Source: Escherichia phage vB_EcoM_VR20. Taken from it: DNA of 64,000 nucleotides. The position numbers were made by a program, and so were the translations under genes. Below, piece by piece: positions 23,223 through 54,310 of this stretch. How positions within the stretch are numbered: position 1 is the stretch's first letter; every line of letters starts with the position of its first letter. Below the pieces are notes generated by a model. The model saw nothing but the letters and a program-made list of their open reading frames with translations. It searched no databases and was not told where the DNA came from. The stretch is taken from the sequence record NC_028894.1. The stretch is one strand, 5' to 3'.

Positions 23223-23477
23223 TTACTTCAGAGTAACGACAAAATGTCGAACAGCTTTGCGAGCAGCAGATGCCAGCGGCTTAGCAAATTTCAGTTCATC
23301 TTTTGCTTCGAGCACAGCGCGAAGGTCGGTTTGTACCGGGTTAAGATGTTTGAAATACTGCAGAATTTCCAGTGCTTCGGCTTCAACATCAATAGATGCG
23401 CCGTAGTTTTCGTGACCGTTATTCCATGCAGTGCGTTGCAGTTCAAGAGCGTGTTGTAATTGTTTGTTTAAAGACAT
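23223..23477 (-). CDS. rIII: rIII lysis inhibition accessory protein
   Basis: Start MSLNKQLQHALELQR.. with GAGG Shine-Dalgarno; about 84 aa, close to T4 rIII. Confidence 0.75.
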   Translation of the reverse strand: MSLNKQLQHALELQRTAWNNGHENYGASIDVEAEALEILQYFKHLNPVQTDLRAVLEAKDELKFAKPLASAARKAVRHFVVTLK

Positions 23478-23617
23478 TTTAGAAGCCTCAATATGAGGTG
23501 AATATTTGGTGGACACGTTCTTCTGAATTTCACTTCCTTTCGACAAGTCTCTCAGTTGTAGTCCACCGTTTAGGATTCTCCGGGTAACTAACTGGTCCGG
23601 CAGCCAATCCATATTAT

Positions 23618-23625
23618 TATTTATA
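23618..23625 (-). promoter_or_regulatory. Late promoter TATAAATA upstream of rIII
   Basis: Minus strand GTTATAAATAATAAT about 140 nt upstream of the rIII ATG. Confidence 0.4.

Positions 23626-27066: not shown

Positions 27067-27067
<1 letters not shown>
26870..27067 (-). CDS. Hypothetical protein
   Basis: 65 aa from the internal ATG, which overlaps the pseT stop. Confidence 0.4.
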
Positions 27068-28285
<1,218 letters not shown>

Positions 28286-28289
<4 letters not shown>

Positions 28290-28768
28290 ACACCAAGCTC
28301 CTTATAAAGTTCTTCGCGACAGGTTTTAAGGATTTTACCAGTTTCATAAGCTGCACTTTCAGAAACATCACCAAGTGCAGCGGCAGATTGCATTTGTCCA
28401 TGGCGTTTAGCTGCATATTCAAAACTTTTTACTAGCTCACGAATACGTTCTTTTTCATTGTATTCTTCAATGAATTCAGGGTATTCCCAAACTGGGCGCA
28501 TCATACGATACCAATGCTGAATAGTAATATAATTACTTCCATCCAGATTAATAATTTGCGAAGGCTTAATAGCGCCCGGAGCATAAAAAGTTACCTGTCT
28601 TACTACATCAATACCGTCCACAATAGCCCAAGCAAAATCGAAAGTTGCCTTCTTTTCAATTGGTGTACTTGCACAGGACCCTAATTTTAAGAGCTTTTGT
28701 AATGCAGGGGATTTAACACCTGAAATGTATTCAGGATTAGCCACAAAACTGTTATCGCGTAATGACAT
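28286..28768 (-). CDS. Hypothetical protein
   Basis: Internal ATG with GAGGAAAATATT Shine-Dalgarno gives 160 aa; promoter/stem-loop cassette directly upstream. Confidence 0.5.
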
Positions 28769-28775
28769 AATATTT

Positions 28776-28840
28776 TCCTCAAATATTTTATAATCCGTGG
28801 GAGCATTATACTCTGCTCCCATGAGTTTGTACACTACTTT
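28776..28840 (-). promoter_or_regulatory. Early promoter with stem-loop (PeSL-like)
   Basis: TGTACA-17-TATAAT; stem gggagca/tgctccc encloses the -10. Confidence 0.45.
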
Positions 28841-28937
28841 CCAAAAAGACCCTGAACACATAAAGTGGCCGCAATTCCAAAACAAAAACAGAATGCACCA
28901 AATCTAACAATATCCCAACCAAGGCTACAGGTCTCTA

Positions 28938-29228
28938 TCATTTGCAACGTTCCTCTTTTAGTTCAGAACGATAATAACATAACATACCTTTTTGGTCACG
29001 TACATATCTTTTTACATCATTCATCCAAATCCTGAATTCTTGCGATGCTTCAAAAGGCATACCAACCCAGGCTTGACCCTCAATTACCTTCACTTCCCAT
29101 TGCTGCTTATAATCAGCCAATGCAACAGGCCAATTAGGATGAACTTGGATTGTGGGCTCCACAACGGGCTTCTGGGCGCATGAAACGAGTCCAATAGCCA
29201 AACATACTGCCATGATAGATTTCATCAT
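28938..29228 (-). CDS. Outer-membrane spanin lipoprotein (T4 pseT.2-like)
   Basis: 96 aa; signal peptide with lipobox LVSC-A; start overlaps the end of the upstream membrane/coiled-coil ORF. Confidence 0.6.
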   Translation of the reverse strand: MMKSIMAVCLAIGLVSCAQKPVVEPTIQVHPNWPVALADYKQQWEVKVIEGQAWVGMPFEASQEFRIWMNDVKRYVRDQKGMLCYYRSELKEERCK

Positions 29229-29578
29229 TTGGTGAGCTCCTGGAAGTCCTGGGCGAACTTATCAAAAGACTGATTAATCTGTTTTTCAACTAATTTAGGC
29301 TTCGCTGCCACAACCTTAGTACGTTTTGCATCTGCGCGAAGTTTATCATTTTCCTTCTGCAGGTGTTCAACATATTCCTGGCGCTGTTGGTCAAGGAGAT
29401 TAATTTGATTAACCTGGTCTTTTATTGATTGCAGATTTTTCGCATTATCTTCTGCGACTTTGGTGACTTCCGCCACCGCTGTCTTGAGATTATCCACTTT
29501 TGCTTTTAGATAGAAACCACTACCAGCAGTTACTACCAGGGCGAGCATAAGCCCTGCGGTGAGATTACTTATTTGCAT
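29225..29578 (-). CDS. Inner-membrane spanin (T4 pseT.3-like)
   Basis: 117 aa; N-terminal transmembrane helix then coiled-coil periplasmic domain. Confidence 0.6.
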   Translation of the reverse strand: MQISNLTAGLMLALVVTAGSGFYLKAKVDNLKTAVAEVTKVAEDNAKNLQSIKDQVNQINLLDQQRQEYVEHLQKENDKLRADAKRTKVVAAKPKLVEKQINQSFDKFAQDFQELTK

Positions 29579-30072
29579 AACTTGATGATTACCTCAACAA
29601 TATCATCCTGGGATAAACCATTCAGGAGGATGTGATTTGTACTGTCAGATGCTGAAATGCGGAACTGATTACCAACTTCATCCGCCATATCATCCTGGGT
29701 TAATACTGGGTGTTTAATTCCCAGGCGGTGCTGAAGTGTCAGGGGTTCAACCACAACATAACAAACACATCCATTGATATGCACATTAGGTTGGGTCTGA
29801 TTGATGAACACTTCTGCATCATATTTAACCAAATGGTTCTTTAAGAAGTCAACCATTTCAGGAACAGATTCATGCAGCGCTTCTTTCCGCTCTTCTGATT
29901 TTTTATCACGATATTCTTTTTGTTTCGCCTTCAACTTTTTATTGGAGGCGAGTTTTTTCCGCAAGTCAGTCATGAGACCAATTTTCTTGGTCCCTTTATA
30001 GACATAAATTCCGTCATGACGGTCACCATATTCATTGACAATCATTTCATTTGAAATCAGTTGCATATCCAT
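29569..30072 (-). CDS. alc: Putative Alc, host transcription shutoff factor
   Basis: 167 aa from the internal ATG with GAGGAAAATATT Shine-Dalgarno, same length as T4 Alc; position between the spanins and rnlA. Confidence 0.55.
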   Translation of the reverse strand: MDMQLISNEMIVNEYGDRHDGIYVYKGTKKIGLMTDLRKKLASNKKLKAKQKEYRDKKSEERKEALHESVPEMVDFLKNHLVKYDAEVFINQTQPNVHINGCVCYVVVEPLTLQHRLGIKHPVLTQDDMADEVGNQFRISASDSTNHILLNGLSQDDIVEVIIKLCK

Positions 30073-30085
30073 AATATTTTCCTCA

Positions 30086-30319
30086 TTAGTAGCGGTTGTA
30101 ACCCCGGGGGCCAAAAGAGTTGGCACCCAGACGTTCATCTTTCTTTTTGGCTCTTGCTCTAAACCCAGAATCACCTGTTTGAGCTTTCAGTTCTTTTAAC
30201 AATTTGGCCTTCAGGTCAGTAATGAAACCAATCCGGCGGTCTCCCTTGTAGACATAGATTCCATCATTTCTGTCGCCATATGCCTTTGTAACTCTGTCAT
30301 TTGAAATTAAGTTTAACAT
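30086..30319 (-). CDS. Small protein paralogous to the Alc N-terminal domain
   Basis: 77 aa; ..LISNDRVTKAYGDRNDGIYVYKGDRRIGFITDLKAKL aligns with Alc residues 1 to 45; basic tail. Confidence 0.5.
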   Translation of the reverse strand: MLNLISNDRVTKAYGDRNDGIYVYKGDRRIGFITDLKAKLLKELKAQTGDSGFRARAKKKDERLGANSFGPRGYNRY

Positions 30320-30390
30320 GTTTTGGTCCTCATCAGTAGTTGATGGAACCATTATGTATAGAAAGAAGGGGCTTGTACACCCCTTTTTTA
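30320..30390 (-). promoter_or_regulatory. Terminator/promoter cassette downstream of rnlA
   Basis: Hairpin gggg-tgtacaag-cccc overlaps the -35; TGTACA-17-CATAAT; leader CATCAACTACTGATGAGGACC. Confidence 0.45.
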
Positions 30391-31527
30391 TTATTCAGGC
30401 AGGATTACATCCGCTTGGTAGTCCACCGGGATGTAAAGTTTATGATTTTTAAGGAAAACATTATTGATTTGAGCGATGGTTTGCTCTGTTTCCTGGGGAC
30501 GTTGATAGGTGTTCATTAATACGGAGAACAAACCCGGATATGGTTTACACAACTCTTGACCTTTAATCGCAAACTCGCGTCGGTCTTTTCCCGCCAACTG
30601 TTTCTGGGCATCAAGCAACAGTCCCAGGGTATTGGACAGATAATCCAGATGTGCAATGGTAAAGGCATTAACTTTTTCACGAGCATAATCATCGCCAGTA
30701 AACATGGCAATAACATCATCTGCACCGCCTGCAACAACAACTTCAAACAGACGCTGGTTATTGTTAACAGAATCCTTTGTATGGTGTAAAGCACAATACC
30801 ATTCTGTCTTAACTTTAAATTTGCGACCATCGACCAGCTCATAGACAAAGCCTTCAATCTCTTTCATATCACGGACGTTTTCAATTGTAGTCGGGTCATA
30901 TGCTTCAACCAGGAATGGACGAAGCGCGGCATCTTTAAACAAATCCTGATAAGGGATATATTCGCCAGTTTCATTATGGCGAACGTTCAGTAAAATCAGG
31001 TCACGTTCCTGGTAAGGCAAAACAATGCGGTTGGTTGGTGCAACATATTCCATATTGCATGTATAACCAGCTTCAGTAATTTCAGTTACACGCTCACGGA
31101 AAGCTATACGGTGTTCTTGTTTGAATACCTGCAGTGCTTCTGCTGCCTGGGAGCTTTTGATTGACCCTTTGGATTTAAAAGCAATATTGGTCTGGTCCAT
31201 ATAAGTGGAGACAAGAGAGCCATCAGCCTTGGTCATGACCAGCGCAACTTCATCCATATTGATATCCATGGTCAACGGATTTTCACCCAGATTAAAGAAT
31301 TTTTCCATAGGACGAGCAGCAATGCGAACTGGACCATCGTCATCCATTTCAAACATAATACCACGGCACTCCAGTGCGTCATCAAGAAGCCAATCACTAT
31401 AGGAAGCATAGTTATAGCTAAAGATGCGGAACTTAGTTTCAAATGGAGAAACAAAATCCGTATAGAAAAACTTACCTTTATCGGATTCGGCGCAAAGCTT
31501 CATTAAGTTATCATATAATTCAATCAT
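30391..31527 (-). CDS. rnlA: RNA ligase 1
   Basis: 378 aa (T4 374); RIFSYNYASYSDWLL, ECRGIMFE and KADGSLVSTY match recalled T4 Rnl1. Confidence 0.88.
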   Translation of the reverse strand: MIELYDNLMKLCAESDKGKFFYTDFVSPFETKFRIFSYNYASYSDWLLDDALECRGIMFEMDDDGPVRIAARPMEKFFNLGENPLTMDINMDEVALVMTKADGSLVSTYMDQTNIAFKSKGSIKSSQAAEALQVFKQEHRIAFRERVTEITEAGYTCNMEYVAPTNRIVLPYQERDLILLNVRHNETGEYIPYQDLFKDAALRPFLVEAYDPTTIENVRDMKEIEGFVYELVDGRKFKVKTEWYCALHHTKDSVNNNQRLFEVVVAGGADDVIAMFTGDDYAREKVNAFTIAHLDYLSNTLGLLLDAQKQLAGKDRREFAIKGQELCKPYPGLFSVLMNTYQRPQETEQTIAQINNVFLKNHKLYIPVDYQADVILPE

Positions 31528-53630: not shown

Positions 53631-53638
53631 TATAAATA
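53631..53638 (+). promoter_or_regulatory. Late promoter TATAAATA of holin gene t
   Basis: Exact motif about 20 bp upstream of the t ATG, with AAAGGAGAAAAG Shine-Dalgarno. Confidence 0.6.
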
Positions 53639-53656: not shown

Positions 53657-54310
53657 ATGGAACCAAAAGTAGGAATCTCAATACCCGACCTACTTTTTGG
53701 ACTTCTTGATAGAATTTTTAAAGATAATGCAACCGGGAAAGTTGTCTTTTCCCGGGTACTAGTTATTGTTCTATTATTTTTAATGGCGGTAATCTGGTAT
53801 AAAGGTGATGCAATTTTAGATGCGTATAGGGATGCTTCATATGCCTCGTACACAGAAATGATAAGGCAAGACCAGGATAACAGATTTAAAATTGCAGCTA
53901 TCGAGCAAATCCAGATAGTTCACTCATCAAGCGGAGCAGACTTTACAGCGATATATTCCTTTAGACCAACTAACCTTAACTACTTCGTGGATATGGTGGG
54001 GTACGAGGGGATATTACCTGAATCAGTTGACGAAAAAAATTTGGGTGGGTTTCCAATAGATAAGACTTCAGCGGAATATTTGGCGGGGGTTAATGGTAAT
54101 TATTTTGAATCCGGCACGGAATCTGTATTCTTACCAACAAAGAAAAAAAGCAGCTTCGAATATATGTTCAGCTGCCCATTCTTTAATTTGGAAAACGTTT
54201 ACGCAGGCACAGTCTCGTTGTACTGGTATAAGCAAAAACCCGACCTTAGTTTTGATAGGCTTTCTGCTATGTGTGGGCAAGCAGGTCGTACGCTCGGGCG
54301 TACACGTTAG
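53657..54310 (+). CDS. t: Holin T
   Basis: 217 aa (T4 218); single N-terminal transmembrane helix; LFG.LDR.FKDNATGKV matches recalled T4 T. Confidence 0.88.
   Translation: MEPKVGISIPDLLFGLLDRIFKDNATGKVVFSRVLVIVLLFLMAVIWYKGDAILDAYRDASYASYTEMIRQDQDNRFKIAAIEQIQIVHSSSGADFTAIYSFRPTNLNYFVDMVGYEGILPESVDEKNLGGFPIDKTSAEYLAGVNGNYFESGTESVFLPTKKKSSFEYMFSCPFFNLENVYAGTVSLYWYKQKPDLSFDRLSAMCGQAGRTLGRTR

What the first reader, a model, noticed from the sequence alone, without database searches (positions are those of the whole stretch)
28938..29578. Two-component spanin pair located far from the holin gene
An overlapping pair, a membrane/coiled-coil protein and a lipoprotein with lipobox LVSC, lies in the pseT to alc interval, about 24 kb from holin t. 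The dispersed lysis-gene layout is known for T4 but is easy to miss in annotation.
Basis: partly seen in the sequence, partly recalled or inferred. Interest (0 to 1): 0.3.

Follow-up and report, generated by a model that had tools for sequence, protein, structure and literature searches.

The report
T4-type two-component spanin gene pair

Summary
The observation and the interpretation both hold. On the minus strand, window 29225..29578 encodes a 117-aa protein with one N-terminal hydrophobic helix and a long helical periplasmic part. Window 28938..29228 encodes a 96-aa lipoprotein precursor with lipobox LVSC (Cys17, +2 Ala). The genes share only the 4-nt ATGA stop/start overlap, exactly as in T4.

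Both proteins match the PHROG 'Rz-like spanin' families (2.8e-36 and 1e-39). They are 48% and 65% identical to T4 PseT.3 and PseT.2, and more than 1000 T4-like phage genomes carry homologues at the same position, next to alc. The two C-terminal cysteines that T4 PseT.2 needs for function (C87/C98) are present here as C84/C95. The i-spanin has no cysteine, as in T4.

The flanks are pseT (27067..27972) and alc (29569..30072). Holin t lies at 53657..54310 on the plus strand, 24,079 nt away, behind a canonical late promoter.

The window is not T4 itself. It is a VR7/vB_EcoM_RZ-like Gaprivervirus, 92-98% identical in DNA. The spanins of VR7, VR25 and VR26 are already listed in the T4 spanin family by Kongari et al. 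2018, who also showed that the T4 pair complements a lambda Rz/Rz1 defect. The finding is already known and of low interest.

The parts
29225..29578 (-). i-spanin gene (PseT.3 homologue), 117 aa; its start overlaps the end of alc by 10 nt, as in T4
   Evidence: ORF. phrog_739 'Rz-like spanin' 2.8e-36 over residues 1-117. 48% identity to T4 PseT.3 over the full length. 1041 phage records matched. No Cys.
29507..29563 (-). codons for the N-terminal transmembrane segment of the i-spanin (residues 6-24, LTAGLMLALVVTAGSGFYL)
   Evidence: This is the only 19-residue window with Kyte-Doolittle mean above 1.6 (1.73). It is helical in the AF2 model, where helix 6-89 is continuous. A hydrophobic segment sits at the same position in all 8 family members aligned.
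29225..29228 (-). ATGA stop/start overlap of the two spanin genes (translational coupling inferred)
   Evidence: Sequence ACCAAATGATGAAA; the same 4-nt overlap is present in T4.
29237..29241 (-). AGGAG Shine-Dalgarno-like motif 8 nt upstream of the o-spanin ATG
   Evidence: Read directly from the minus-strand sequence 29250..29220.
28938..29228 (-). o-spanin gene (PseT.2 homologue): 96-aa precursor, 80-aa predicted mature lipoprotein
   Evidence: ORF. phrog_812 'Rz-like spanin' 1e-39 over residues 1-96. 65% identity to T4 PseT.2. 1189 phage records matched.
29178..29189 (-). lipobox codons L14-V15-S16-C17 (CTC GTT TCA TGC); Cys17 is the predicted lipid-modified first residue of the mature protein
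   Evidence: PS51257-type pattern match with Cys at 17 and +2 Ala. Cys17 is invariant in 8 diverse family members.
28944..28979 (-). stretch from the Cys84 codon (28977..28979) to the Cys95 codon (28944..28946), the two periplasmic cysteines of the o-spanin
   Evidence: They align with T4 PseT.2 C87/C98 and are invariant across the family. Both are essential for T4 spanin function (PMC6139136). In the AF2 model they lie on the two strands of a C-terminal hairpin, E82-87 and E92-95.
53657..54310 (+). holin t (context; functional partner in lysis, 24,079 nt from the i-spanin start)
   Evidence: PF11031 Phage_holin_T 2.9e-66; phrog_860 holin 2.9e-93.
53631..53638 (+). T4 late-promoter consensus TATAAATA just upstream of t (context)
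   Evidence: No exact TATAAATA lies on the minus strand between 29578 and 40957.

Best explanation

Inferred mechanism, taken from the T4 and lambda paradigms:
- The 117-aa protein is anchored in the inner membrane by its N-terminal helix (residues 6-24). It projects a long alpha-helix (to about residue 89) and a second short helix (95-115) into the periplasm.
- The 96-aa precursor is exported, lipid-modified at Cys17 and cleaved by signal peptidase II. Because residue +2 is Ala, the Lol system sorts it to the inner leaflet of the outer membrane.
- The conserved C-terminal parts of the two proteins bind each other, so the complex spans the periplasm through the peptidoglycan mesh.
- Cys84 and Cys95 of the o-spanin form disulfides. 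In T4 these are first intramolecular and are then isomerised to two intermolecular o-spanin/o-spanin links.
- When holin T opens the inner membrane and endolysin E removes the peptidoglycan, the freed complexes fuse or disrupt the outer membrane. This is the last step of lysis.

The two genes are probably translationally coupled through the ATGA overlap and an AGGAG 8 nt upstream. They lie in the minus-strand alc-pseT gene string, apart from the late-promoter-driven holin gene.

Shown here: gene structure, targeting signals, homology, conserved cysteines and synteny. Inferred: topology, complex formation, membrane fusion and timing of expression.
For: - ORFs and junction.
- Family assignment: PHROG spanin families at 2.8e-36 and 1e-39, each covering the full length.
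- Annotated relatives: the nearly identical genes in NC_070780, NC_028957, NC_014792 (gene names pseT.3/pseT.2) and others are annotated 'Rz-like spanin', 'I-spanin' or 'outer membrane lipoprotein Rz1'.
- Lipobox rule met with +2 Ala; single TM segment; no Cys in the i-spanin; Cys84/Cys95 in the o-spanin.
- Family-wide invariance across eight phage genera of the lipobox Cys, both C-terminal Cys and the i-spanin motif KP-L-E--N-S.
- AF2 single-sequence model of the i-spanin: helices 6-89 and 95-115, pLDDT 82.7.
- AF2 single-sequence model of the o-spanin: disordered linker, then beta-hairpin, helix, beta-hairpin. Both models match the alpha1-alpha2 and beta1-alpha-beta2 organisation described for the T4 pair in PMC6139136.
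- Experimental basis in the paradigm: T4 pseT.3/pseT.2 complement lambda RzamRz1am, and C87S and C98S abolish lysis. VR7, VR25 and VR26 are listed as members of the T4 i- and o-spanin families (PMC6139136).
- Holin t is present in the window.
Against: - Nothing substantive contradicts this reading.
- No dedicated SignalP/LipoP/TMHMM run was possible; the signals were tested with rule-based and hydropathy criteria only.
- The i-spanin N-tail (MQISN) has no basic residue, and Lys25/Lys27 follow the TM segment. The positive-inside rule therefore does not by itself favour the required N-in/C-out topology. T4 PseT.3 has the same pattern and is functional.
- The Pfam lambda-Rz model (PF03245) scores only 15 bits against a cut-off of 25.4, and the o-spanin has no Pfam hit. 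The assignment therefore rests on PHROGs and on direct homology to T4.
- The o-spanin AF2 model has only moderate confidence (pLDDT 65.7).
- No experiment exists for this particular phage's proteins.
Confidence: 0.95

Rival explanations
1. The N-terminal hydrophobic segment of the 117-aa protein is a cleavable signal peptide rather than a membrane anchor. The protein would then be a soluble periplasmic coiled-coil partner of the lipoprotein, not an inner-membrane-tethered i-spanin.
For: The n-region has no positive charge. Small residues (T-A-G-S-G, residues 17-21) lie inside the hydrophobic stretch, and basic residues follow it. There is a precedent for re-interpreting a T4 lysis protein's N-terminal segment: RI, in PMC8385771 (title and abstract seen).
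Against: The hydrophobic stretch is 19 residues long and continues without a break into the long helix in the AF2 model. There is no canonical AxA site. The T4 homologue is treated as TMD-anchored and functions as a spanin, which requires tethering to the inner membrane (PMC6139136). The segment is conserved in position across the family.
Confidence: 0.03
2. The pair is an envelope-protein module with a different primary role, for example superinfection exclusion or envelope remodelling early in infection. The spanin annotation would then be a transferred label only.
For: The genes lie in the minus-strand alc-pseT string of non-late-type genes. No exact late-promoter consensus lies on their strand for more than 11 kb upstream. 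No experiment exists on this phage.
Against: The pair is directly orthologous to T4 genes that were shown to replace lambda Rz/Rz1 functionally (PMC6139136). All residues known to be required are conserved. Promoter inference from consensus scans is weak: 7 sigma-70-like sites were found against 6.6 expected.
Confidence: 0.02

Closest known systems
Phage T4 PseT.3 / PseT.2 two-component spanin ('separated' architecture; T4 i-spanin and o-spanin families of Kongari et al. 2018, PMC6139136)
   Same: - Gene order alc > i-spanin > o-spanin on the same strand.
- 10-nt overlap with alc and 4-nt ATGA overlap between the spanin genes.
- 117-aa i-spanin with an N-terminal TMD, no Cys and two helices joined at a conserved K-P.
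- o-spanin with the lipobox Cys at position 17 and two C-terminal Cys 11 residues apart.
- 48% and 65% identity.
- Location about 24 kb from holin t.
   Different: - The o-spanin is 96 aa rather than 99 aa, with a 3-residue deletion in the region between the linker and the beta-domain, and lipobox LVSC instead of LVGC.
- The central part of the i-spanin helix (about residues 40-75) is strongly diverged.
- The gene downstream differs: a 178-aa gene of unknown function (phrog_4482) follows after a 115-nt gap, whereas in T4 pseT.1 overlaps the end of pseT.2.
Spanin genes of Gaprivervirus phages (vB_EcoM_VR7 pseT.3/pseT.2, VR25, VR26, vB_EcoM_RZ, ECML-359)
   Same: Essentially the same genes: 92-98% DNA identity over 28700..29800. 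Both proteins are 100% identical in ECML-359. In vB_EcoM_RZ the i-spanin is 100% and the o-spanin 99% identical. They are annotated 'Rz-like spanin' in RefSeq and are listed in the T4 spanin families in PMC6139136.
   Different: Only point differences. Several GenBank versions leave them as 'hypothetical protein'.
Phage lambda Rz / Rz1 (embedded two-component spanin)
   Same: The functional design is the same: an inner-membrane-anchored helical protein plus an outer-membrane lipoprotein that spans the periplasm. The T4 pair substitutes functionally for Rz/Rz1 (PMC6139136).
   Different: - No significant sequence relationship: PF03245 scores 15 bits, below the 25.4 cut-off.
- The genes here are not embedded.
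- The o-spanin here is larger and predicted to be folded (beta-alpha-beta) rather than proline-rich and unstructured.
- The cysteines are in the o-spanin only, and both are required.

Membership tests
T4 PseT.3/PseT.2-type two-component spanin | Significant sequence homology of both subunits to PseT.3 and PseT.2 | tested here: met
   48% identity over 117 aa and 65% over 96 aa. tblastn E-values are about 4e-30 (i-spanin to T6) and 7e-34 (o-spanin to T2). phrog_739 at 2.8e-36 and phrog_812 at 1e-39.
T4 PseT.3/PseT.2-type two-component spanin | i-spanin has a single N-terminal transmembrane domain | tested here: met
   One segment (residues 6-24) has a Kyte-Doolittle mean of 1.73 and no other exceeds 1.6. 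It is helical in the AF2 model. No TMHMM or Phobius was available.
T4 PseT.3/PseT.2-type two-component spanin | N-in/C-out (type II) topology of the i-spanin | not testable with these tools
   The charge distribution is uninformative: there is no basic residue before the TMD. A PhoA/LacZ fusion or protease-accessibility data would be needed.
T4 PseT.3/PseT.2-type two-component spanin | Periplasmic domain of the i-spanin is two alpha-helices joined by a short linker | tested here: met
   AF2 gives helices H6-89 and H95-115, with the break at the invariant K93-P94. Coiled-coil oligomerisation itself was not tested.
T4 PseT.3/PseT.2-type two-component spanin | o-spanin has a signal peptidase II lipobox and an outer-membrane sorting signal (no Asp at +2) | tested here: met
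   LVSC at residues 14-17 passes the PS51257-type rule, and +2/+3 are Ala-Gln. Cys17 is invariant in the family. LipoP and SignalP were not available, and lipidation was not shown.
T4 PseT.3/PseT.2-type two-component spanin | Two conserved periplasmic Cys in the o-spanin (T4 C87, C98) and none in the i-spanin | tested here: met
   Cys84 and Cys95 align with T4 C87 and C98. The i-spanin has no Cys.
T4 PseT.3/PseT.2-type two-component spanin | Adjacent co-oriented genes, i-spanin first, 'separated' architecture, next to alc | tested here: met
   there is a 4-nt ATGA junction in both phages, with alc immediately upstream.
T4 PseT.3/PseT.2-type two-component spanin | Functional: required for outer-membrane disruption; complements lambda RzamRz1am | not testable with these tools
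   This was shown for the T4 pair only (PMC6139136).
Lambda Rz (Pfam PF03245 Phage_lysis) sequence family | Score above the Pfam gathering threshold | tested here: not met
   15.0 bits against a cut-off of 25.4. The pair is a functional analogue, not a member of this family.
Unimolecular spanin (T1 gp11 type) | A single protein with both an N-terminal lipobox and a C-terminal TMD | tested here: not met
   The lipoprotein has hydrophobic windows only at its N-terminus. Its C-terminus is charged (ELKEERCK).

The most novel reading that the evidence does not exclude
The spanin genes lie in the minus-strand alc-pseT string, with no canonical late promoter on their strand for more than 11 kb upstream, whereas holin t sits directly behind TATAAATA. 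In this phage group the spanin complex might therefore be made from early or middle transcripts and pre-installed in the envelope long before lysis. The strongly diverged central helix of the i-spanin (only 48% identical to T4, against 65% for the o-spanin) might tune the complex to a different periplasmic width or add an early envelope function. This is speculation that the evidence does not exclude; it is not supported positively.
Probability: 0.08. Interest if true: 0.3.

Novelty: already known. Interest (0 to 1): 0.07.

Why it matters
The value is for annotation only. The check confirms that the two small genes next to alc in this T4-like genome are the spanin subunits, which many GenBank records of near-identical phages still label 'hypothetical protein'. 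It also confirms the dispersed lysis-gene layout typical of T4-like phages: holin 24 kb away, rIII about 5 kb away, and no Pfam lysozyme domain in the eight mid-sized ORFs scanned. No new biology is implied.

Tried and rejected
- Pfam gave no usable family. The o-spanin had no hit. The i-spanin had only sub-threshold coiled-coil-type hits, including PF03245 at 15 bits.
- PDB sequence searches found no solved relative of either subunit. The best E-values were 0.67 and 0.069, to unrelated coiled coils.
- An exact late-promoter search found no TATAAATA on the minus strand near the pair. One-mismatch variants and MotA-box scans between 28800 and 33500 gave nothing convincing.
- The sigma-70-like and terminator-like scan of 27900..30600 was at chance level for promoters: 7 found against 6.6 expected. 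The transcription timing is therefore left as inference.
- Recent literature (HIDEN-SEQ preprint, LIN review) added nothing specific on T4 spanins.
- I looked for an endolysin among eight mid-sized window ORFs (154-218 aa). Five matched other Pfam families (UvsY, gp28, gp30.3, MotA, baseplate protein) and three had no hit. None had a lysozyme domain.
- I deliberately did not spend the large protein-database searches or fold search. The answer did not depend on them, and the o-spanin model was of only moderate confidence.

Full report
**What is in the sequence**

The interval 28938..29578 is filled exactly by two minus-strand ORFs. One runs 29225..29578 (117 aa, ATG start) and the other 28938..29228 (96 aa, ATG start). 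The minus-strand junction reads ACC AAA TGA overlapping ATG ATG AAA, so the stop of the first gene and the start of the second share the four bases ATGA (29225..29228). An AGGAG lies 8 nt upstream of the second start. The first gene's start overlaps the end of the upstream gene by 10 nt.

**Targeting signals**

- The 96-aa protein begins MMKSIMAVCLAIGLVSC|AQKP.
- It satisfies the PROSITE PS51257-type lipoprotein rule: Lys in the first seven residues, an uncharged h-region, the lipobox L-V-S-C and Cys at position 17.
- It has Ala, not Asp, at +2. In E. coli this specifies outer-membrane sorting (established '+2 rule').
- The predicted mature protein is 80 aa and contains two further cysteines, C84 and C95.
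- The 117-aa protein has a single hydrophobic segment, residues 6-24, with a Kyte-Doolittle 19-residue mean of 1.73. No other window exceeds 1.6, and the protein has no cysteine.

**Homology**

- The two proteins match PHROG families phrog_739 and phrog_812, both labelled 'Rz-like spanin', over their full lengths at 2.8e-36 and 1e-39.
- Pfam gives nothing above threshold. The lambda Rz model PF03245 scores 15 bits against a cut-off of 25.4.
- tblastn against the phage collection finds the i-spanin in 1041 records and the o-spanin in 1189. Almost all are T4-like phages of enterobacteria, and Aeromonas phages also match the o-spanin. Where annotated, the genes are called spanin Rz, I-spanin, o-spanin, outer membrane lipoprotein Rz1 or pseT.3/pseT.2.
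- Direct alignment with the T4 reference (NC_000866, genes pseT.3 and pseT.2) gives 48% and 65% identity.
- In an eight-genus alignment (Tequatrovirus, Dhakavirus, Moonvirus, Krischvirus, Chrysonvirus, Chakrabartyvirus, a Klebsiella phage and the window), the lipobox Cys and both C-terminal Cys of the o-spanin are invariant. [quoted passage not shown]

**Identity of the window**

Over 28700..29800 the DNA is 92-98% identical to Escherichia phages P896, vB_EcoM_RZ, ECML-359, VR26, VR7 and VR25. This is the genus Gaprivervirus of the Straboviridae, not T4 itself. In RefSeq NC_070780 the two genes are annotated 'Rz-like spanin'. In VR7 they carry the gene names pseT.3 and pseT.2.

**Context**

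Downstream on the minus strand:
- a 115-nt gap;
- a 178-aa gene of unknown function (phrog_4482);
- a 106-aa gene (phrog_2364);
- pseT at 27067..27972 (polynucleotide kinase; PF25109 and PF13671).

Upstream:
- alc at 29569..30072 (PF17527 1.3e-48);
- an 88-aa paralogue of the Alc N-terminus at 30086..30352;
- rnlA at 30391..31527.

Holin t is at 53657..54310 on the plus strand (PF11031 2.9e-66; phrog_860 2.9e-93), just after gene 38. The T4 late-promoter consensus TATAAATA lies at 53631..53638, directly before it.

An rIII-like lysis-inhibition accessory gene lies within 23223..23612, about 5.3 kb from the spanins. None of the eight mid-sized ORFs scanned against Pfam had a lysozyme domain. 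This fits the T4 map, where gene e is about 70 kb away (T4 map position from my own knowledge).

**Structure**

Single-sequence AlphaFold2 gives the i-spanin as one long helix (6-89, TMD plus alpha1) and a second helix (95-115), with a break at A-K-P-K. Mean pLDDT is 82.7.

The o-spanin model has moderate confidence (65.7 overall, 74-83 over residues 51-96). It shows:
- a disordered linker after Cys17;
- a short low-confidence helix at 35-42;
- a beta-hairpin at 46-56;
- a helix at 63-78;
- a C-terminal hairpin at 82-87/92-95 that places Cys84 and Cys95 on neighbouring strands.

This reproduces the alpha1-alpha2 and beta1-alpha-beta2 organisation described for T4 PseT.3 and PseT.2 (PMC6139136). 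It is compatible with the intramolecular disulfide proposed there. No solved structure of a relative exists.

**What is known**

Kongari et al. 2018 (PMC6139136) report the following:
- T4 PseT.3/PseT.2 is the paradigm of the 'separated' two-component spanin architecture.
- The pair complements lambda RzamRz1am.
- C87 and C98 of PseT.2 are both essential.
- vB_EcoM-VR7, VR25 and VR26 are members of both the T4 i-spanin and the T4 o-spanin families.

The feature in this window is therefore a catalogued member of an experimentally grounded family.

**Mechanism**

The mechanism is inferred from the paradigm.
1. The i-spanin is anchored in the inner membrane.
2. The o-spanin is lipid-anchored in the outer membrane.
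3. Their C-terminal regions bind, so the complex spans the periplasm through the peptidoglycan mesh.
4. After holin triggering and murein degradation, the complexes disrupt or fuse the outer membrane.

Gene structure, targeting signals, conserved residues and synteny are shown here. Topology, complex formation, lipidation, membrane fusion and expression timing are inferred.

**Caveats**

- The i-spanin N-tail lacks basic residues, so the positive-inside rule does not positively support the required orientation. T4 PseT.3 has the same pattern.
- Promoter scans near the pair were at chance level, so expression timing is unresolved.

**Verdict**

The feature is already known and ordinary, and the interest is low.

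Noticed in passing
window 30086..30352 (-): An 88-aa ORF is a paralogue of the N-terminal third of Alc. It shows 50% identity over 64 aa to the full-length alc product at 29569..30072, PF17527 3.2e-9, and its own PHROG family phrog_17715 at 7.6e-54. It sits between rnlA and alc, is absent from T4, and is annotated 'inhibitor of host transcription' in NC_070780. Its function as a truncated Alc is unknown.
   Followed up: partly
window 28286..28937 (-): An extra 178-aa gene of unknown function (phrog_4482, 1.4e-72; annotated start at 28822) follows the o-spanin gene after a 115-nt non-coding gap. The gap carries a sigma-70-like TGTACA-17-TATAAT (28833..28805). T4 has no gene here; pseT.1 directly overlaps pseT.2.
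   Followed up: partly
window 23223..23612 (-): An rIII-like lysis-inhibition accessory gene (phrog_1457, 6.6e-42, residues 48-129 of the ORF) lies about 5.3 kb from the spanin pair. A TATAAATA late-promoter consensus is at 23618..23625 (-), just upstream. It is another dispersed lysis-related gene in the window.
   Followed up: partly
window 53631..53638 (+): A canonical T4 late-promoter motif TATAAATA lies 19 nt upstream of the holin t start codon. No exact motif lies on the minus strand between the spanin genes and 40957. This suggests different transcriptional control of holin and spanins.
   Followed up: partly
L003 (Aeromonas phage phiAS5) 303..686 and L004 (Pseudomonas phage pf16) 309..710: The distant i-spanin homologues of phiAS5 and pf16 carry a C-terminal extension with two cysteines that the enterobacterial T4-like i-spanins, including the window's, lack. 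This implies a different disulfide arrangement within the same family.
   Followed up: no
L006 (Escherichia phage E26) 536..988: The annotated PseT.2 homologue is 150 aa because of a long N-terminal extension that overlaps the i-spanin gene. The extension does not align with other o-spanins, so the start codon is probably mis-called in that record.
   Followed up: no
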